Positions 30,629 through 51,033 of a DNA stretch of 64,000 nucleotides are shown here, piece after piece; position 1 is the stretch's first letter, and every line of letters begins with the position of its first letter. Origin of the DNA: Xanthomonas sp. (GTDB lineage: Bacteria > Pseudomonadota > Gammaproteobacteria > Xanthomonadales > Xanthomonadaceae). The stretch spans positions 239,248 to 303,247 of the forward strand of contig JADFDQ010000002.1 of the NCBI GenBank assembly GCA_018262705.1, given 5' to 3'. The notes below the pieces were generated by a model, which was not told the DNA's origin, did not search any database, and was given only the letters and a program-made list of their open reading frames with translations. A program made the translations under genes and the position numbers.

Positions 30629-30988
30629 TCAGCGCGGCGCCCAGACCGCCGCGTCCAGCGTTTGCGCTTCCTTTGCGATCTCGACCCGGCCGTTGCGGAT
30701 CGCGACACCTTCGGCGCGCAGTCGTTTCGCCTGCTCGCGCCAGGGGCGCGTTCCGGGTGCAAAAGCAATCCGCCCGTCCGAACGCAGGATCCGGTGCCAG
30801 GGCAGCTGCGGATCCTCGCATTCGCCAAGCACCCGTGCGACCAGCCGCGCGCGCCCGGGCAGTCCGGCGCGCCGCGCGATGCCGCCGTAGCTGGCCACCT
30901 GCCCGCTTTGCACCGCACGGATCGCATCGACGATGCGCTGCTGCGGCGACCGCTTGTCTTCAAGCCGATCCATGATCCGGGTTAGCAT
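30629..30988 (-). CDS. MGMT/Atl family alkyltransferase-like DNA-binding protein
   Basis: GQVASYGGIA, ARLVA, LPWHR (Trp in place of catalytic Cys), EGV; start uncertain. Confidence 0.85.
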   Translation of the reverse strand: MLTRIMDRLEDKRSPQQRIVDAIRAVQSGQVASYGGIARRAGLPGRARLVARVLGECEDPQLPWHRILRSDGRIAFAPGTRPWREQAKRLRAEGVAIRNGRVEIAKEAQTLDAAVWAPR

Positions 30989-31019
30989 AGCGCTCTGCCC
31001 CGTCAACATGCCCGTAGCG

Positions 31020-31430
31020 ATGATCAATTTCGAACAAATCCGCCAGCATCTGCAGTCCGCCGGCTACCACCTGTTGCTGGAAGAGCCCGGACTGGCCTGC
31101 GTCGAACTGTCGCTCGGGCAGGGCAAACGCCATCAGGCCATCTTCCTGGCCGAACTGCAGGACGACGACGGGCGCCGGTATCTGCGGGTGAGCACGTCGA
31201 TCGCTCCGATCACCGGGCTGGATGCGCGCAAGGCGCTGGCGTTCAACTGGGAAAGCCGGGTCGGCTTCCTCGCCATCGGCGAACTCGACGACGTGCGCTA
31301 CCTGCAACTGTGCGAAAACCGCCCTTACGACAGCCTGCTTCCCGCCGAAATCGACCGTCTGATTCTGGAAATCGGCGGCACCGGCGATGCCATGGAAAAG
31401 CCGCTGTCGGCCGGCGGGGATTTGCTGTAG
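31020..31430 (+). CDS. Hypothetical protein, possibly YbjN/type III chaperone-like fold
   Basis: Small alpha/beta pattern (QAIFL, YLRVSTSIAP, ALAFN...GFLAI); family assignment tentative; 3' end lies in the left direct repeat. Confidence 0.5.
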   Translation: MINFEQIRQHLQSAGYHLLLEEPGLACVELSLGQGKRHQAIFLAELQDDDGRRYLRVSTSIAPITGLDARKALAFNWESRVGFLAIGELDDVRYLQLCENRPYDSLLPAEIDRLILEIGGTGDAMEKPLSAGGDLL

Positions 31431-31436
31431 CCGACG
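31408..31436 (+). repeat. Left 29-bp direct repeat (attL-like), contains the stop codon of the upstream gene
   Basis: Exact match to 33495-33523; flanking bases differ. Confidence 0.95.
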
Positions 31437-31679
31437 CGCTAGAGTGAGCGCTACCGCGCAGACGCACGATCCAAGCAGCTAGCATGGGGATGCGAGAATT
31501 CGCTGTCCCGGTGCAGATGCGCGAAACGGGCGGGCATGGAACTTCCGCGGTTGAAGACCTCAGGGTAGGGCGGGCGCCGCGCAGGGGCAAGGCTTGACAG
31601 CGGCGATCTCCGGTAGCGGCGCGCCGAGGATCGGATTAGTCGCATCGTCAATGCTGCGAGCATCGACCGCAGGCGTCGA

Positions 31680-31707
31680 TCAATATTGACTATTGATTTT
31701 GAAATCA
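31680..31707. promoter_or_regulatory. AT-rich promoter/operator-like region with two palindromes
   Basis: TCAATATTGA (31680-31689) and TGATTT-TG-AAATCA (31694-31707); TTGACT at 31686. Confidence 0.4.
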
Positions 31708-31723
31708 GCTATTTTCACGACTT

Positions 31724-32293
31724 GTGCCTGAATTCGCGTCATGGGGAAGGCACTCGCAGGTCGGCGGCAATCCGTCCTGCGAAGCATCCGCGTCGGACAA
31801 ACCGCACGGCGTGCGCATCCGCTACATGGGCGGCTGCCGCTGCGCGCCGTGCCGTTCGGCCAACACGGCCTACGAAACGCAACGCGCCAAAGCGCGCAAG
31901 GCCGGCGACTGGAATGGCATCGTGCCCGCCGACGCTGCGCGCGACCACCTCCACAAACTGCGCCGCCAAGGCATCGGTCGGCGCACCGTGCAGGCGTGCA
32001 CCGATGTCGGCGACACCGTGCTCAGCCAAATCATCAGCGGCAAGAAGACGCGCATCCGCGCGCGCACCGAGCGCCTGATCCTGCGTGTGGGCAAAGCCCA
32101 AGCCGCCGACCATGCGCTTGTCTCCGCGGAACGCTCACGCCGGCTGATCCAGCTGCTGCTCGAAGAGCAGTACACCGAGGCCTACCTGGCCAAGCGGCTG
32201 GGCTACAAGAACCACTACTTGCAATTCGGCGCCGTCATCACGGTGCGCAACGCGGCGCGGATCAAGCGGTTGTATCTGGAGCTGACATCATGA
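31724..32293 (+). CDS. Phage-like protein with HG-x5-Y-x2-GCRC-x2-C motif and two HTH-like segments
   Basis: KPHGVRIRYMGGCRCAPC; later HLHKLRRQGIGRRTV...LSQIISG and YLAKRLG; start uncertain. Confidence 0.6.
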   Translation: MPEFASWGRHSQVGGNPSCEASASDKPHGVRIRYMGGCRCAPCRSANTAYETQRAKARKAGDWNGIVPADAARDHLHKLRRQGIGRRTVQACTDVGDTVLSQIISGKKTRIRARTERLILRVGKAQAADHALVSAERSRRLIQLLLEEQYTEAYLAKRLGYKNHYLQFGAVITVRNAARIKRLYLELTS

Positions 32294-32313
32294 CGCACGC
32301 CACCGCCACGCAC

Positions 32314-32763
32314 CTACGCCGCGCGCCGCGCCTGTTCGGCTTCCCAGCCCTTCAGCGCCAGCAGCACCGTGCGCGGTACCGGGCGTGCGCCGGTGCGGTA
32401 TTGGCTGACGGTGCGGCGGGTCATGCCGATGGCCTCCGCCGCCTGCGCCAAGCTCAAGCCGTGCCTGTCCTGCCAGCGGCGGAAGGCCAGCGTATCGGCG
32501 CGGCCTTCCTGCTCCAGCGCCATCTCCATCACGCGGTCGGCATCCAGCCCTTCGCCATTGGGCCACTCCAACGAATGACCCCAGTCGCCGACCGCCACGC
32601 GGCGGAAGAAGGCGCGGTCGCGCAGTGGTGCGAACACGGCGAAGCGTTCCGGCAGTTCGGACACGTCCACCCGCACCACCTGCCCGCCGGTGTAGGCCAC
32701 TTCCAGCGCCAGACCGCGCAGCGGCTTGACGGATTCGATTCGGTTGACGTTTTGCTTGCTCAT
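32314..32763 (-). CDS. DUF2442 plus C-terminal HTH putative antitoxin
   Basis: FAPLRD..FF..V.V..WG..LEW..GLDAD, then GLSLAQAAEAIGMTRRTVSQY. Confidence 0.82.
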   Translation of the reverse strand: MSKQNVNRIESVKPLRGLALEVAYTGGQVVRVDVSELPERFAVFAPLRDRAFFRRVAVGDWGHSLEWPNGEGLDADRVMEMALEQEGRADTLAFRRWQDRHGLSLAQAAEAIGMTRRTVSQYRTGARPVPRTVLLALKGWEAEQARRAA

Positions 32764-32766
32764 GGC

Positions 32767-33003
32767 TCACCTCGGCGGCGGATTGTTCATGCGGTCCCAC
32801 TCGGCACGGACGGCGGCGGCATTGGCCGTCACCCAGGCAACAGCCTGCGCGATCACGTCAGCAGGCACGCCGGAGTTGACCACCGTGCCGTCGATGCCGA
32901 CCGACGCACGGCCATCGGGATGCAGGACGTGGGCATGAACGGGCGGATGTTCGCTGCCCTGCACCTTGATGATCCAGCTGCGCGCGGAGTGGATTTTGCC
33001 CAT
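32767..33003 (-). CDS. DUF4160 family putative toxin
   Basis: EHPPVHAHV, terminal AEWDRMN; directly upstream of DUF2442; ATG at 33003. Confidence 0.82.
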   Translation of the reverse strand: MGKIHSARSWIIKVQGSEHPPVHAHVLHPDGRASVGIDGTVVNSGVPADVIAQAVAWVTANAAAVRAEWDRMNNPPPR

Positions 33004-33009
33004 GTGCGA

Positions 33010-33038
33010 ATTATGGAGAAATAATTTCTCCATGTCAA
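33010..33038 (-). promoter_or_regulatory. Sigma70 promoter (TTGACA-17-CATAAT) overlapped by a perfect 21-bp palindromic operator
   Basis: -35 at 33038-33033, -10 at 33015-33010; ATGGAGAAAT-A-ATTTCTCCAT at 33013-33033. Confidence 0.8.
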
Positions 33039-33057
33039 GCGCCGTGTATCGGCGCGG

Positions 33058-33087
33058 TTGACAACGCGCTGGATTCGGGGCGATGCT
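33058..33087 (+). promoter_or_regulatory. Divergent sigma70-like promoter for the c4-like/bro transcript
   Basis: TTGACA at 33058-33063, GATGCT 18 nt downstream. Confidence 0.5.
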
Positions 33088-33149
33088 TGCCGTGCAGCCG
33101 CAGTGCGGTTGCCGGGAATCTTGGCAGTGACCCGAAATCCAGGCGCACA

Positions 33150-33191
33150 GAAAAGAGCGCCGATGATCTCCATTGGCGCTCTTTTCGTTTC
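33150..33191 (+). terminator. Intrinsic terminator/attenuator hairpin in the leader
   Basis: GAAAAGAGCGCC / GGCGCTCTTTTC 12-bp stem followed by GTTTC. Confidence 0.6.
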
Positions 33192-33216
33192 TGTGCGTGC
33201 GCTGCCCGCAGTTTGC

Positions 33217-33285
33217 GGCGGGCGGCGCGGGGGCACCTTCGGGTGCGTCGGTCCTGGCCGATCTGCCAACCCCGCGTCGTCCGCC
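33217..33285 (+). ncRNA. P1 c4 / P4 CI-like antisense RNA
   Basis: 16-bp closing stem (33217-33232 with 33270-33285), GCACC-UUCG-GGUGC hairpin, second hairpin, unpaired CUGCCAA complementary to TTGGCAG (33121) and TTGGCA (33293). Confidence 0.72.
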
Positions 33286-33335
33286 ACCCAGCTTGGCAAT
33301 GCGGTGGCGGACTCCATCACTTCCAGGAGTCCGAG

Positions 33336-33500
33336 ATGAACGAAATCACCATCTTTGGGTTTGAAGGCCGGGTTGTCCGCACCGTGGTGCTGGACGAGGA
33401 GCCGTGGTTCGTTGGCCGGGACGTGGCTGACATCCTCAGCTACGCCGACGCTACCAACGCGCTCAAGCAGCTTTGTCGTGGGGTGGTGAAATACCGGCCG
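33336..33500 (+). pseudogene. Truncated Bro-N (phage antirepressor) gene
   Basis: MNEITIFGFEGRVVRTVVLDEEPWFVGRDVADILSY..NALKQLC with GGAG RBS; Bro-like sequence ends inside the right direct repeat. Confidence 0.85.
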
Positions 33501-33523
33501 GCGGGGATTTGCTGTAGCCGACG
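33495..33523 (+). repeat. Right 29-bp direct repeat (attR-like)
   Basis: Exact match to 31408-31436. Confidence 0.95.
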
Positions 33524-33551
33524 TCATCGCGCCGAATCGACGCAGCCGCGC

Positions 33552-34673
33552 TCAGTCCCAGCCCGCCAGCATCAGGAACTTGTAGAACAGCCAGGCCACG
33601 GTGCCCGAAGCCGGGATCGTCAGGATCCACGCCCAGACGATGCGCTCGATCGTGCCGAGCTTGAGCCGACGCGGATTCTTGGCAAAGCCCACGCCCATGA
33701 TCGCGCTCGACACGGTATGGGTGGTCGAGACCGGCATGCCGAAGTGCGCCGCCGCCATCAGCACCGTGGCCGAACTGGTGTCCACCGCGAAGCCGTCGAG
33801 CGGATGCAGCTTGACCATCTTGTGGCCCAGGGTTTTGATAATGCGCCAGCCGCCGGACGCGGTGCCGCAGGCCATCACCAGCGCGCAGGTGACGATGATC
33901 CAGTCGGCGACGTCACTGCCGGCCGAACGCTCGGGATGCATGAAGGACAGGAACCAGGGCAGGCCGTCCAGCGCGCCGGAGGCTTCCGCACCGACCAAAG
34001 TCAGCGCGATCACGCCCATGGTTTTTTGCGCGTCATTGTGACCATGCGCATAGCCCATGTAGGCCGCGGAGCAGATCTGCAGTTTGCCGAACAGGGCGTT
34101 GATCCAACGCGGGCGCGCCAGCCTGCGCAGCGCGCCACCGCTGCGTTCCAGCCCGCGGATCAGCACATACAGCAGCACCATCAGGATCAGCCCCAGCAGG
34201 AATCCGGCCAGCGGCGAAGTCACCATCGGCACCAGCACCTTCCACAACAGACCTTTGCTCTGGGTCCAGCGCTCGGCGGCCTGCACCCAGATCAAGGAAT
34301 TCCAGTTGCCGTGCGAAGCCGACAGCGCCGCGCCGCACAGTCCGCCGATCAGCGCATGCGAGGACGACGAAGGCAGGCCAAGCCACCACGTCACGAGGTT
34401 CCAGACGATCGCGCCGAGCAGGGCCGCCAGCACCAGCTGGGAACTGGCCGCGACCACCTCGGTATTGACGATCCCGGTGGCGATCGTTGCCGCAACCGCG
34501 GTTCCGGTCAGCGCGCCGAGCATGTTCGTGGTAGCCGCCAGACCCACCGCCTTCCCGGGCGAGAGCACCTTGGTCGCCACCGAGGCTGCGATCGAATTGG
34601 CGGTGTCGTGGAAGCCGTTGATGAACTCGAACACGAGCGCGGCGGCGATCACCACGAGGACTAAGGTCAGCAT
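33552..34673 (-). CDS. PiT family inorganic phosphate transporter
   Basis: NGFHDTAN and GHNDAQKTMG signature motifs, PVSTTH. Confidence 0.93.
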   Translation of the reverse strand: MLTLVLVVIAAALVFEFINGFHDTANSIAASVATKVLSPGKAVGLAATTNMLGALTGTAVAATIATGIVNTEVVAASSQLVLAALLGAIVWNLVTWWLGLPSSSSHALIGGLCGAALSASHGNWNSLIWVQAAERWTQSKGLLWKVLVPMVTSPLAGFLLGLILMVLLYVLIRGLERSGGALRRLARPRWINALFGKLQICSAAYMGYAHGHNDAQKTMGVIALTLVGAEASGALDGLPWFLSFMHPERSAGSDVADWIIVTCALVMACGTASGGWRIIKTLGHKMVKLHPLDGFAVDTSSATVLMAAAHFGMPVSTTHTVSSAIMGVGFAKNPRRLKLGTIERIVWAWILTIPASGTVAWLFYKFLMLAGWD

Positions 34674-49823: not shown

Positions 49824-50474
49824 ATGTGCGGATTCAAAGCATTTTCGACCGGTTTCGCCTTCGCCTTAGCATGCTCACCAGCAAGCTCGAACGCGCAGCC
49901 GGCAACCTCGGATGCACCGTGCGTCGTTGGCAACGGCATCCTGCGCATCACTCCACAAGGTATGTCAGATGTGCGGGAAATCATCGTGACTCGTCCTGAT
50001 GGCGGAATCGTCTACCTGTATTCCCCAAGGCTGGGCGTCTACAACCTGATGTCTCCCGTCCACGGTCTCATCGAGGTAAATCCCGCTTCCCAGCGAGGCG
50101 CACAATACGCGGATGATGGAAAGCTGCATGAACGGGAGATTTTTTCTGACTCCGGAAGCTACCGAGTGGATGTGCTGGGAAAATCCGGTAAACCCGTGCC
50201 CGGCATCCAGTATTCCCGCCTTGCGTGTTCACTTGACTTCGTCGATGGCCGAGGATTCCAACGCGCCACTCCCCTGCACGGCGTGGCTCGGGATCCCGTT
50301 TCCTTCATTTCTGATTGTCCGCCGGAGGGGCAGTCAGATCTGAGAGCTGCATGCAACTCATCTTCTGGATGCCAAAACGGGGGGCACGGCTATTGCTGTT
50401 CTTCAGCGGGTCAAGGAGGACCGTGCTATTGCAATAATTGCTGTGTAGCCTTGACCGCTAGGGTCAGGCCATGA
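49824..50474 (+). CDS. Hypothetical secreted protein with 9-Cys C-terminal tail
   Basis: Signal-peptide-like N-terminus; tail C-x11-C-x5-C-x7-CC-x8-C-x-C-x2-CC. Confidence 0.6.
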   Translation: MCGFKAFSTGFAFALACSPASSNAQPATSDAPCVVGNGILRITPQGMSDVREIIVTRPDGGIVYLYSPRLGVYNLMSPVHGLIEVNPASQRGAQYADDGKLHEREIFSDSGSYRVDVLGKSGKPVPGIQYSRLACSLDFVDGRGFQRATPLHGVARDPVSFISDCPPEGQSDLRAACNSSSGCQNGGHGYCCSSAGQGGPCYCNNCCVALTARVRP

Positions 50475-50589
50475 TCAGCCGCCTGAAGACCATTTTGAGC
50501 ATCGCAACTGAGCTGCTCTTCCGTCCCTCCTGCCAAGCGCAACAGCCATCACTGACGCCATTGTCAGGCGCGTTGCCTGCGGCGGCCAC

Positions 50590-51033
50590 ATGCTTGTGAC
50601 GCACGCGAAGATGGCCATTCGCGCCACGATCTTTTGTCTTGCCTTGGCGGTGTCACAAGGCGCAAGCGCGTTGCCCGGCATCCTGGATGCGACGTGTTCA
50701 ATCAAGGGGCAGGCATTCGTTCTGGATACCGGACGCATCAGGGTGCCGTCGCAGGCCGCCGTACTGCTGCCGAGCGGTAAACTATTGCGGCTACGCTACC
50801 CGCCTGAAAACATCGACACCTTGGGGCCACAGTATCCTCGCGGTCACGTAGCGATTCCATTCAGAACACTGAAAGGAGTTGATGCCTCGTCGCGGCAGGT
50901 TGCTGTGTTCACGGTACCGGGGACCTATCGGTTCTTGATGCAAGACGCCAATACCGCAGAAAGCATGGAACTCCATCAATTGCAATGCAGCGTCACGCTC
51001 ACCAAAGCGCAAATCGACGCGACAGGTCTTTGA
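50590..51033 (+). CDS. Hypothetical secreted protein, apparent paralog of the upstream N-domain
   Basis: Signal-peptide-like MAIRATIFCLALAVSQGASA (ATG 50611 possible); shared Cys...F-x3-G-x-YR...CS pattern. Confidence 0.6.
   Translation: MLVTHAKMAIRATIFCLALAVSQGASALPGILDATCSIKGQAFVLDTGRIRVPSQAAVLLPSGKLLRLRYPPENIDTLGPQYPRGHVAIPFRTLKGVDASSRQVAVFTVPGTYRFLMQDANTAESMELHQLQCSVTLTKAQIDATGL

What the first reader, a model, noticed from the sequence alone, without database searches (positions are those of the whole stretch)
33058..33500. Intact c4/CI-type RNA immunity switch controlling a truncated antirepressor
Seen in order: promoter, target a1 TTGGCAG (33121), 12-bp terminator hairpin, a cloverleaf RNA exposing CUGCCAA, target a2 TTGGCA (33293), GGTGGCGG (33303-33310) able to pair with CCGCCACC and open the closing stem, and an 8-bp hairpin CGGACTCC/GGAGTCCG that hides the bro RBS. 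Established: this is the layout of P1/P7 immI (c4-icd-ant) and P4 immunity (seqA-CI-seqC). Inference: the RNA looks better preserved than its downstream gene, so it might act in trans to give immunity against related phages or satellites.
Basis: partly seen in the sequence, partly recalled or inferred. Interest (0 to 1): 0.72.

Follow-up and report, generated by a model that had tools for sequence, protein, structure and literature searches.

The report
Phage C4 antisense RNA switch remnant
This is a real, structurally intact copy of a well-known phage antisense-RNA switch (the C4/CI type of phages P1 and P4), left in a 2-kb phage remnant in a Thermomonas chromosome where the antirepressor gene it once controlled is cut to its first ~55 codons; it is a new member of a known kind, not a new mechanism.

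Summary
Rfam's C4 model (RF01695) matches window 33211..33291 (+) over its full length at 65 bits (gathering 45).

In 38 phage relatives with different a'/b' sequences, each RNA's own complements recur at the same offsets upstream and downstream (all four sites in 34/38, against 1.4% for non-self pairs). The promoter, a 5' hairpin, the terminator after b1 and an SD-sequestering hairpin sit at conserved positions too.

The downstream gene is a Bro-N antirepressor cut at about codon 55.

New context: the module lies in a 2,058-bp mosaic phage-derived insertion. It is flanked by a perfect 29-bp direct repeat of host sequence, has no integrase, and is absent from 80 related Lysobacteraceae.

The trans-immunity idea is plausible by analogy with P1 but untested. 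I found no element with the same specificity and no RNA data.

Verdict: ordinary, a new member of a known family.

The parts
31408..31436 (.). Left copy of the perfect 29-bp direct repeat CGGCCGGCGGGGATTTGCTGTAGCCGACG. It covers the last codons and the stop of the conserved 165-aa host gene (30933-31430).
   Evidence: D2; host origin shown by relatives' empty sites, e.g. L004 has CGGCCGGCGGGGATTTGCTGTAGC at the same gene end
31437..33494 (.). 2,058-bp phage-derived mosaic insertion between the 165-aa gene and pit. It has no integrase and no tRNA.
   Evidence: The gene and pit are directly adjacent in about 74 of 80 related Lysobacteraceae loci, and none carries the island's genes. No tRNA. The modules occur separately in different phage types.
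31724..32293 (+). phrog_1590-family gene of unknown function. The start is uncertain; homology covers aa 23-189.
   Evidence: PHROG 3.1e-19; homologues lie in the early regions of Mu-like transposable phages between Gam and GemA/Mor
32314..32763 (-). DUF2442 + HTH (Xre-type) protein
   Evidence: Pfam; 74-77% identical relatives beside the portal gene of a P2-like viral contig
32767..33003 (-). DUF4160 protein, probably translated from a leaderless or near-leaderless mRNA
   Evidence: Pfam; the promoter TTGACA-17-CATAAT ends 7 nt before the ATG at 33003
33010..33038 (-). Strong sigma-70-like promoter (11/12 matches) for the DUF4160/DUF2442-HTH pair, divergent from the C4 promoter
33039..33055 (.). 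Inverted repeat GCGCCG-TGTAT-CGGCGC between the two divergent -35 boxes; candidate operator (inference)
   Evidence: read directly from the sequence
33058..33087 (+). Putative promoter of the C4 operon: TTGACA, 18-nt spacer, GATGCT. A mosaic joint at 33067 lies inside its spacer.
   Evidence: sequence; positional conservation in 37/38 relatives; similarity to other contigs carrying the DUF module stops at 33067
33094..33193 (+). a1b1 leader, an IsrK/SeqA-like short RNA: 5' hairpin 33094-33112, a1, b1, then an intrinsic terminator
   Evidence: isrK model positions 1-77 matched at 23.9 bits, below the gathering score; fold -48.6 kcal/mol; the isrK or c4-a1b1 models hit the equivalent segment of relatives above threshold
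33121..33127 (+). a1, TTGGCAG, 7-nt complement of a'
33139..33143 (+). b1, CCAGG, 5-nt complement of b', 18 nt after the start of a1 (family norm about 15 nt)
33150..33193 (+). Intrinsic-terminator-like hairpin plus T-rich tail between b1 and C4
   Evidence: a hairpin plus T-run at the same place in 29/38 relatives by a strict perfect-stem test
33211..33291 (+). C4-type antisense RNA gene: a 16-17-bp closing stem, hairpin 1 with a UUCG loop, hairpin 2 carrying b', a single-stranded a', and a 3' ACCC tail
   Evidence: Rfam RF01695 65 bits; fold; compensatory pairs
33252..33257 (+). b' (UCCUGG), loop of hairpin 2; the shortest b' loop in the comparison set
33263..33269 (+). a' (CUGCCAA), the unpaired stretch between hairpin 2 and the 3' arm of the closing stem
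33293..33298 (+). a2, TTGGCA, 2 nt after the 3' end of C4
33303..33312 (+). GGTGGCGGAC, 10-nt complement of the 3' arm and tail of the C4 closing stem (33279-33288); a possible alternative pairing in the unprocessed transcript
   Evidence: used in the minimum-energy fold of the whole leader; the equivalent element is seen in L091 and L093, and the self complement is at least 8 nt in 17/37 relatives
33308..33333 (+). 8-bp hairpin CGGACUCC/GGAGUCCG that sequesters the SD
   Evidence: -14.4 kcal/mol
33323..33328 (+). b2, CCAGGA, overlapping the GGAG Shine-Dalgarno, 8 nt before the ATG
33336..33500 (+). 5' stub of a Bro-N antirepressor gene (codons 1-55 of a protein normally about 230-280 aa). The reading frame then runs on meaninglessly, antisense to pit, as far as 34664.
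   Evidence: Pfam Bro-N profile positions 2-36/96; PHROG antirepressor families, aa 1-53; alignment to full-length relatives, last shared residue the invariant P55; ORF list
33495..33523 (.). Right copy of the 29-bp direct repeat. Its first 6 nt (CGGCCG) still read as bro codons 54-55.

Best explanation
Window 33058-33500 is a genuine, structurally intact member of the C4/CI family of phage antisense-RNA immunity modules (P1/P7 immI, P4 seqA-CI-seqC, Gifsy-1 isrK locus). It sits at the right end of a 2.06-kb prophage remnant in a Thermomonas chromosome.

Mechanism (inferred by homology, not shown here):
1. One promoter (TTGACA-18-GATGCT, transcription start near 33094) drives a leader containing a1 and b1.
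2. Most transcripts stop at the intrinsic terminator (33150-33193) and give an IsrK/SeqA-like short RNA.
3. Read-through transcripts contain the C4 precursor. It is cut out of the leader, by RNase P in P1 and P4, whose substrate features (an acceptor-like closing stem plus an ACC tail) are present here.
4. Mature C4 uses the unpaired a' (CUGCCAA) and the loop b' (UCCUGG) to pair with a2 and b2. b2 covers the Shine-Dalgarno, which is also locked in an 8-bp hairpin. Translation of the first downstream gene is therefore blocked and, through polarity, so is downstream transcription.
5. The a1/b1 sites, in the leader or as the free short RNA, compete for C4 and set the switch point.

Here the controlled gene is only the first ~55 codons of a Bro-N antirepressor, so the switch no longer has a cis payload. 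Most likely the element is a recent leftover that still represses itself. Any present-day role would have to be in trans.

The truncation is best explained by a deletion that removed the rest of the prophage and ended inside the right-hand attachment-site identity block, at a CGGCCG microhomology.
For: Identity:
- Rfam C4 scores 65 bits against a gathering score of 45, full length. The minimum-energy fold is the same structure, z -4.6.
- 27/28 consensus pairs are canonical, 8 of them doubly changed against the commonest pair, and 14/28 pairs covary in the family.

Targets:
- a1 7 nt, a2 6 nt, b1 5 nt, b2 6 nt at family-typical offsets (-94, -76, +2, +32). Joint chance is about 3e-7.
- Family-wide co-variation over 38 distinct a'/b' combinations: self matches of at least 6 nt in 38/38 (a1), 37/38 (a2), 34/38 (b1) and 33/38 (b2), against 13%, 5%, 27% and 8% for non-self pairs. 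All four sites reach at least 5 nt in 34/38 self pairs and in 1.4% of non-self pairs.

Conserved architecture:
- Promoter position, terminator after b1 in 29/38, b2 on GGAG, and an SD hairpin/GGTGGCGG element.
- The isrK or c4-a1b1 models hit the a1b1 segment of relatives directly upstream of C4.
- The short-plus-read-through isoform logic, and a processed downstream RNA complementary to IsrK, were shown experimentally in Gifsy-1 (PMC4825925).

Payload: relatives control ORF6N, P22_AR_N, Rha or Bro-N antirepressor-type genes. Here Bro-N is cut at P55.

Context: the segment is an insertion relative to 80 related species, bracketed by a 29-bp repeat of host sequence, and is a mosaic of phage modules.
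Against: - No expression data. No RNA run holds the locus, so transcription, termination, processing and pairing are all inferred.
- The -10 hexamer is weak (GATGCT) and was not called by the consensus scan. A recombination joint at 33067 lies inside the promoter spacer, so the promoter could be impaired.
- The a1b1 segment is below threshold for isrK and is not hit by c4-a1b1.
- The b pairings (5 and 6 nt) are the shortest in the comparison set.
- Part of the family invariance in my set (the CCUUCGGG loop, CGG/CCG, CCCC) was fixed by the search pattern.
- The origin scenario (deletion ending inside attR) is not demonstrated. There is no integrase, and the site is not used by prophages in any of the 80 relatives.
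Confidence: 0.85

Rival explanations
1. Trans-acting immunity. The orphan C4 is kept because it represses the antirepressor of incoming or co-resident phages or satellites that carry TTGGCA...CCAGGA targets, as resident P1 c4 does for superinfecting P1.
For: - The RNA gene, its promoter geometry and both target pairs are intact while the payload is gone.
- C4-type RNAs act in trans in P1/P7, where they define heteroimmunity (review PMC12197685; Citron & Schuster 1990, as cited).
- The island is fixed at uniform depth in populations from two independent studies, biofilter 2020 and groundwater 2024.
Against: - No element with the same a'+b' specificity was found in IMG/VR or the JGI metagenome contigs. 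The five looser hits are chance matches in coding sequence with no C4 fold.
- There is no second a2/b2-type target in the 64-kb window.
- Intactness is equally expected for a recent remnant.
- Only one lineage carries it, so there is no evidence of selection.
Confidence: 0.2
2. Inert relic. The module is a recently stranded fragment with no function in cis or in trans, and it looks intact only because too little time has passed for decay.
For: - The payload is truncated.
- The island is a mosaic of unrelated phage modules with no integrase.
- It is present in a single lineage among 80 related species.
- The contigs from different runs are 99.9-100% identical, so the population is young or clonal.
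- The promoter carries a recombination joint and a weak -10.
Against: Nothing in the RNA, its targets or its promoter geometry is degraded. This reading cannot be separated from the best explanation without expression data. It differs only in whether the RNA is still made.
Confidence: 0.4
3. Exapted regulator of pit. Transcripts from the C4 promoter that escape the switch run antisense through the convergent phosphate-transporter gene pit, so the RNA switch now gates antisense interference with pit.
For: - The bro' frame stays open for 442 codons across pit.
- No terminator-like site lies between bro' and pit.
- The closest relatives also have only 20-60 bp between the two host genes and no terminator there.
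Against: - Long open antisense frames are usual in 65% G+C DNA.
- There are no expression data.
- Untranslated or poorly translated read-through would be stopped by Rho.
- The arrangement exists in one lineage only.
Confidence: 0.04
4. Not an RNA element at all: chance hairpins and short complementarities in G+C-rich DNA.
For: Short 5-7-nt matches are individually common. Marginal probabilities are 0.9-5.5% each.
Against: The covariance-model E-value is 2.4e-10, the joint probability of the four sites is about 3e-7, the geometry equals that of 38 covarying relatives, and there are compensatory base pairs.
Confidence: 0.01

Closest known systems
c4 antisense RNA of phages P1/P7 (immI: c4-icd-ant); Rfam RF01695
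   Same: - The same covariance-model family.
- An RNA embedded in the leader of the operon it controls.
- Two short recognition elements (a', b') with target pairs upstream (a1/b1) and downstream (a2/b2).
- b2 on the ribosome-binding site of the first downstream gene.
- The payload is an antirepressor.
   Different: - The first gene here is the Bro-N antirepressor itself, with no small icd-type ORF in front, and it is truncated at codon ~55.
- The host is a Thermomonas chromosome remnant, not a plasmid prophage.
- The b' loop is only 6 nt.
- Processing and repression are not shown here.
CI RNA of satellite phage P4 (seqA - CI/seqB - seqC)
   Same: The same fold and the same upstream/downstream target layout. 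P4-type loci are the commonest relatives retrieved with my C4 pattern (69% identity to the P4 record X02534.1). The a1b1 leader is the SeqA equivalent; the IsrK paper calls IsrK a structural homologue of SeqA.
   Different: P4 CI is described as causing premature transcription termination of the replication operon (from the literature). Here b2 overlaps an SD, so translational block is the likelier primary effect. The payload differs too: P4-type loci carry a 64-aa ORF plus DUF5375.
Gifsy-1 isrK - STnc1160/orf45 - anrP locus of Salmonella (Rfam RF01394; PMC4825925)
   Same: - One promoter gives a short terminated RNA and a read-through transcript.
- The RBS of the first ORF is held in a hairpin.
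- A processed stable RNA lies downstream and is complementary to the short RNA.
- The payload is an antirepressor.
- The isrK model aligns over its whole length to window 33094-33186, and it hits relatives above threshold directly upstream of C4.
   Different: The window scores only 23.9 bits (gathering 50). In Gifsy-1 the short RNA was shown to activate translation in trans; whether that happens here is unknown. No Hfq dependence can be inferred.
Antirepressor loci of telomere phages (phiKO2, PY54) and Stx phages
   Same: DNA similarity to the C4 region of relatives, next to genes annotated Ant/Rha/repressor.
   Different: These are known only by annotation here, and they are enterobacterial subtypes with different a'/b'.

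Membership tests
C4 antisense RNA (Rfam RF01695; P1/P7 c4, P4 CI) | Covariance-model score at or above the curated gathering score, over the full model | tested here: met
   65 bits against 45, model positions 1-87/87, E 2.4e-10
C4 antisense RNA (Rfam RF01695; P1/P7 c4, P4 CI) | Fold: a long closing stem enclosing two hairpins, maintained by compensatory changes | tested here: met
   The minimum-energy fold equals the Rfam consensus, z -4.6. 27/28 consensus pairs are canonical and 8 are doubly changed against the commonest pair.
C4 antisense RNA (Rfam RF01695; P1/P7 c4, P4 CI) | Exposed a' and b' complementary to one target pair upstream (a1/b1) and one downstream (a2/b2) on the same strand | tested here: met
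   7, 5, 6 and 6 nt at offsets -94, -76, +2 and +32. Joint chance about 3e-7. Self against non-self control in 38 relatives.
C4 antisense RNA (Rfam RF01695; P1/P7 c4, P4 CI) | The downstream target overlaps the ribosome-binding site of the first gene of the controlled operon | tested here: met
   b2 CCAGGA 33323-28 overlaps GGAG 33326-29, 8 nt before the ATG at 33336. The same holds in nearly all relatives.
C4 antisense RNA (Rfam RF01695; P1/P7 c4, P4 CI) | The mature RNA is processed from the leader transcript (by RNase P in P1 and P4) | not testable with these tools
   No RNA runs. Only the substrate-like features (closing stem plus ACC tail) are visible.
C4 antisense RNA (Rfam RF01695; P1/P7 c4, P4 CI) | Represses antirepressor synthesis and confers superinfection immunity in trans | not testable with these tools
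   This needs genetics. The cis payload is truncated and no phage with matching targets was found.
c4-a1b1 motif (Rfam RF03163) | Covariance-model hit on the segment upstream of C4 | tested here: not met
   No hit at E<=10 in 32600-33900, although the model hits the relative L106 at 62.4 bits. a1 and b1 are present here by complementarity only.
isrK (Rfam RF01394) | Covariance-model score at or above the gathering score (50 bits) | tested here: not met
   23.9 bits, E 0.011 in a 1.3-kb search, with model positions 1-77 aligned. The relatives L182 and L093 reach 51.8 and 50.8 bits.
isrK (Rfam RF01394) | Architecture: 5' hairpin, middle region, and a Rho-independent terminator allowing partial read-through into the antirepressor operon | tested here: inconclusive
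   The hairpin 33094-33112 and the terminator 33150-33193 are present. Read-through is not measurable.
Bro-N antirepressor (Pfam PF02498) | A complete Bro-N domain plus a C-terminal region | tested here: not met
   Only profile positions 2-36 of 96 are matched. The alignment to relatives of 230-280 aa ends at P55.
Integrase-mobilised prophage or genomic island | Flanking direct repeats that duplicate the target (att core) | tested here: met
   A perfect 29-bp repeat whose sequence is native to the host gene end in relatives.
Integrase-mobilised prophage or genomic island | An integrase/recombinase gene, and recurrent use of the site by related elements | tested here: not met
   No integrase among the island's ORFs. 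None of the 80 related loci has a phage element at this site. No empty-site or circle joints in 4 metagenomes.

The most novel reading that the evidence does not exclude
The orphan C4 RNA has been kept by the bacterium as a stand-alone, RNA-only immunity determinant. Having lost the antirepressor it once controlled, it still silences the antirepressor (immI-type) operon of incoming or co-resident phages that share its TTGGCA/CCAGGA targets, with the IsrK-like a1b1 RNA as a built-in antagonist. That would be a domesticated phage antisense repressor acting as host defence. A less likely variant is that it gates antisense transcription into pit.
Probability: 0.12. Interest if true: 0.6.

Novelty: new member of a known kind. 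Interest (0 to 1): 0.28.

Why it matters
It matters only modestly.
- It extends the curated C4/CI family to a Thermomonas (Lysobacteraceae) chromosome, with a recognition specificity (a' CUGCCAA, b' UCCUGG) not seen in the collections I could search.
- It is a clean natural case in which the RNA part of an immI-type switch outlives its protein payload.
- The comparison made along the way is more useful than the locus itself. Across 38 specificities, a'/b' co-vary with both target pairs at fixed offsets. The promoter, the a1b1 terminator RNA and the SD hairpin are conserved parts of the module. Two Rfam families, isrK and c4-a1b1, describe the same upstream element.
- If the orphan RNA proved to protect against phages in trans, it would be an example of an RNA-only, prophage-derived defence. 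There is no evidence for that yet.

Tried and rejected
- DNA similarity of 33058-33500 to 50,697 GenBank phages: only a 67-nt Bro-N match to a mycobacteriophage antirepressor.
- Word-indexed protein search with the 53-aa Bro stub: nothing. The index-free HMMER search then gave 1,756 Bro-N relatives, none closer than about 65% identity.
- The 29-bp repeat as an attP in IMG/VR: 0 hits.
- Exact same-specificity C4 pattern: 0 hits in IMG/VR and 0 in the JGI metagenome contigs. A looser pattern gave 5 metagenome hits, all chance matches inside transporter or helicase genes with no C4 fold, and 0 in IMG/VR.
- The idea that the DUF4160/DUF2442-HTH pair or the phrog_1590 gene travel with C4: rejected. 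Their viral and chromosomal relatives lack C4 and bro.
- The idea that bro is split by integration and continues across a circular junction: rejected. Reading from the stub through the repeat into the left end gives a stop after 19 codons and no Bro homology.
- The idea that the site is a recurrent phage attachment site: not supported. L062 has an unrelated chemotaxis/GGDEF insertion without repeats. L031, L058 and L080 have housekeeping neighbours. L068 has tRNAs.
- Defence-system and NCBIfam libraries for the island's proteins: nothing significant.
- RNA-seq evidence: no RNA run holds the locus.
- Xylella phage Xfas53, the best annotated Bro-N match: its Bro-N domain is internal to a 431-aa protein with no C4 context.
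Full report
1. THE OBSERVATION

I read 32700-34200 and located every motif by script.
- TTGACA at 33058
- TTGGCAG (a1) at 33121
- the hairpin GAAAAGAGCGCC/GGCGCTCTTTTC at 33150-33186 with a T-rich tail
- CUGCCAA (a') at 33263-69
- TTGGCA (a2) at 33293
- GGTGGCGG at 33303
- the hairpin CGGACTCC/GGAGTCCG at 33308-33333

The start codon is at 33336.

Rfam C4 (RF01695) matches 33211-33291 (+) over model positions 1-87 at 65 bits, against a gathering score of 45, with E 2.4e-10. It is the only Rfam family in the 64-kb window above threshold. The sequence alone folds into the same shape at -53 kcal/mol, z -4.6 against dinucleotide shuffles.

Instead the isrK model (RF01394) aligns end to end with 33094-33186 at 23.9 bits, below its threshold of 50.

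The loop of the second hairpin, UCCUGG (33252-57), is a second recognition element, b'. Its complement occurs as CCAGG at 33139-43, 18 nt after a1 starts, and as CCAGGA at 33323-28. The second site overlaps the GGAG Shine-Dalgarno 8 nt before the ATG. The locus therefore has the full a1-b1 / a'-b' / a2-b2 set. With composition-matched mock words, the four sites have marginal probabilities of 3.8%, 1.4%, 5.5% and 0.9%, a product of about 3e-7.

3. FAMILY-WIDE TEST

A DNA pattern that fixes only parts of the two hairpins and leaves a' and b' free retrieved 120 viral contigs. Of these, 88 elements fold canonically and give 38 distinct a'/b' combinations.

Each RNA's own a' has a complement of at least 6 nt upstream in 38/38 and just downstream in 37/38. 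Its own b' does so in 34/38 and 33/38. With a'/b' taken from other loci the figures are 13%, 5%, 27% and 8%. All four sites reach at least 5 nt in 34/38 self comparisons and in 1.4% of non-self ones.

The geometry is fixed across the family:
- the -10 hexamer ends 31-33 nt before a1 in 37/38
- b1 follows a1 by about 15 nt
- a hairpin plus T-run follows b1 (29/38 by a strict perfect-stem test)
- a2 lies 2-10 nt after C4 and b2 lies 32-40 nt after it, on a GGAG

The window fits every point (33 nt; -94, -76, +2, +32).

In an alignment of the 38 RNAs, 14 of 28 consensus pairs show double-sided changes. The window keeps 27/28 pairs, 8 of them through compensatory changes. Caveat: the positions fixed by my pattern are invariant by construction.

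L091 and L093 carry nearly the same GGTGGCGGACTC...GGAGTC element, the SD is paired in most local folds, and a complement of at least 8 nt to the 3' arm of the closing stem occurs in 17/37. The evidence for the "anti-stem" is modest, because the control is inflated by the similarity of closing stems among relatives.

4. LINK TO STUDIED SYSTEMS

The commonest subtype in my set is the P4 immunity region itself (69% identity over 88% of the query to record X02534.1). Telomere phages and Stx-phage Ant loci are also hit.

The isrK model hits L182 and L093, and the c4-a1b1 model hits L106, directly upstream of their C4 genes. So two differently named Rfam families describe the same upstream element.

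The Gifsy-1 study (PMC4825925) showed the following:
- one promoter yields a short terminated IsrK and a read-through mRNA
- the RBS of the first ORF is held in a hairpin
- IsrK acts in trans on the long form
- a processed stable RNA (STnc1160) complementary to IsrK lies downstream
- the authors call IsrK a structural homologue of P4 SeqA

That is the experimental counterpart of the window's a1b1-terminator segment plus C4.

That c4 blocks antirepressor synthesis by pairing around the ribosome-binding site, and underlies P1/P7 heteroimmunity, is taken from the review PMC12197685. That P1 c4 and P4 CI are cut from their precursors by RNase P is my own recollection of the 1990s literature. I did not check it here.

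5. THE PAYLOAD

The ORF after b2 matches Pfam Bro-N only over profile positions 2-36 of 96, and PHROG antirepressor families over residues 1-53. An index-free HMMER search found 1,756 relatives. Aligned to ten full-length ones (about 230-280 aa), identity runs through the invariant P55 and then stops: the consensus reads ...KYHPIxDAxGRxQ... and the window reads ...KYRPAGICCSRR (also Xfas53). The gene is cut at one third of its first domain.

In relatives, C4 controls ORF6N, P22_AR_N, Rha or Bro-N+ORF6N proteins, or the P4-type 64-aa ORF plus DUF5375. A C4 in front of a Bro-N gene is therefore an ordinary pairing.

6. THE CONTEXT (NEW)

A perfect 29-bp direct repeat (31408-31436 and 33495-33523) brackets the region. 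The right copy begins at bro codon 54.

The host is a Thermomonas. In about 74 of 80 related Lysobacteraceae species the 165-aa gene (30933-31430) and pit (33552-34673, minus strand) are directly adjacent and convergent, and none has the island's genes. The closest relative has CGGCCGGCGGGGATTTGCTGTAGC at the end of the same gene. So the repeat is duplicated host sequence, and 31437-33494 (2,058 bp) is an insertion.

The insertion has no integrase and no tRNA. It is a mosaic of three modules:
- a phrog_1590 gene whose homologues sit in the early regions of Mu-like phages
- a DUF4160 / DUF2442-HTH pair, found beside the portal gene of a P2-like contig without any C4
- the C4 module

Contigs from wastewater and sludge metagenomes carry a copy of 32315-33067 that is about 95% identical, with similarity breaking exactly at those two points. 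The right-hand joint therefore falls between the -35 and -10 hexamers of the C4 promoter.

The island is present at flank-like depth, with no empty-site or circle joints, in four metagenomes from two studies. The independent contigs are 99.9-100% identical.

7. HOW THE TRUNCATION AROSE (INFERENCE)

The first 6 nt of the right repeat (CGGCCG) still read as bro codons 54-55 (R, and the invariant P). The simplest account has two steps. First, a prophage integrated at the 3' end of the 165-aa gene with an identity block of at least 29 bp. Later, a deletion joined bro at a CGGCCG microhomology to a point inside the right-hand identity block. Any deletion ending inside that block makes the surviving repeat start exactly at the junction, which removes the apparent coincidence.

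Alternatives are a one-step illegitimate insertion with target duplication, or short-homology integration of a circular fragment. I cannot exclude either. Against an integrase origin, none of the 80 relatives has a phage element at this site, and the repeat is not found in IMG/VR.

8. FUNCTION TODAY

The cis logic is intact but the payload is gone.
- no RNA run holds the locus
- no other a2/b2-type site occurs in the window
- no element with the same a'+b' exists in IMG/VR or the JGI metagenome contigs; the five looser hits are chance matches in coding sequence

Intactness is equally expected of a recent relic. My estimates are about 0.4 that it is inert, about 0.2 that it acts in trans, and a few percent that read-through matters for pit. 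The identity and the inferred cis mechanism stand either way.

9. VERDICT

This is a new member of a known, curated family in a new host lineage, inside a small prophage remnant. It is well preserved and tidy, but it would not surprise a specialist.

Noticed in passing
window 33003-33055: The DUF4160 gene appears to be leaderless. A near-consensus promoter (TTGACA-17-CATAAT, 33038..33010, minus strand) ends 7 nt before its ATG at 33003. A perfect inverted repeat, GCGCCG-TGTAT-CGGCGC (33039-33055), sits exactly between this -35 and the divergent C4 -35. It could be an operator for the adjacent DUF2442-HTH protein, which would couple the two units.
   Followed up: partly
window 32315-33067: The DUF2442-HTH/DUF4160 pair with its promoter region behaves as a discrete, exchangeable 753-bp module. 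Copies about 95% identical occur in wastewater, sludge and freshwater metagenome contigs (one of 12 kb), with sharp similarity breaks at 32315 and 33067.
   Followed up: partly
L182 261-337, L093 4826-4901, L106 1510-1562: Two Rfam families, isrK (RF01394, no clan) and c4-a1b1 (RF03163, clan CL00128), hit the same kind of element (the a1-b1-terminator leader directly upstream of C4) in different relatives. They look like one functional element under two names. This is a curation point.
   Followed up: partly
window 33336-34664: The bro' reading frame stays open for 442 codons, running antisense through the whole pit gene, and no terminator-like site separates the C4 operon from pit. This is probably just G+C-rich antisense openness, but read-through would be antisense to pit.
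   Followed up: no
window 31630-31640: A cluster of five substitutions within 11 nt distinguishes the contigs of runs X1 and X2 from the window and X4, in the non-coding left part of the island. The rest of the island is invariant.
   Followed up: no
window 31770-31799: Assembly graphs of runs X1 and X3 fork at this 30-nt word at the 5' end of the phrog_1590 gene. Other contigs share it and then diverge, so the same word is present in other elements of those communities.
   Followed up: no
L062 10490-12600: Another Lysobacteraceae MAG has an unrelated insertion of about 2.1 kb (CheY-like receiver, CheC-like and GGDEF genes) between the same two host genes, without flanking repeats. The intergenic site tolerates insertions.
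   Followed up: partly
window 50001-51000: Local G+C dip to 0.58 against about 0.65-0.70 elsewhere in the window. This could be another acquired segment.
   Followed up: no
L086-L205 (viral contigs): At least 38 distinct a'/b' specificities exist among 88 canonical C4 elements. The same a' is often combined with different b' loops and vice versa, which suggests modular reassortment of the two recognition elements.
   Followed up: partly
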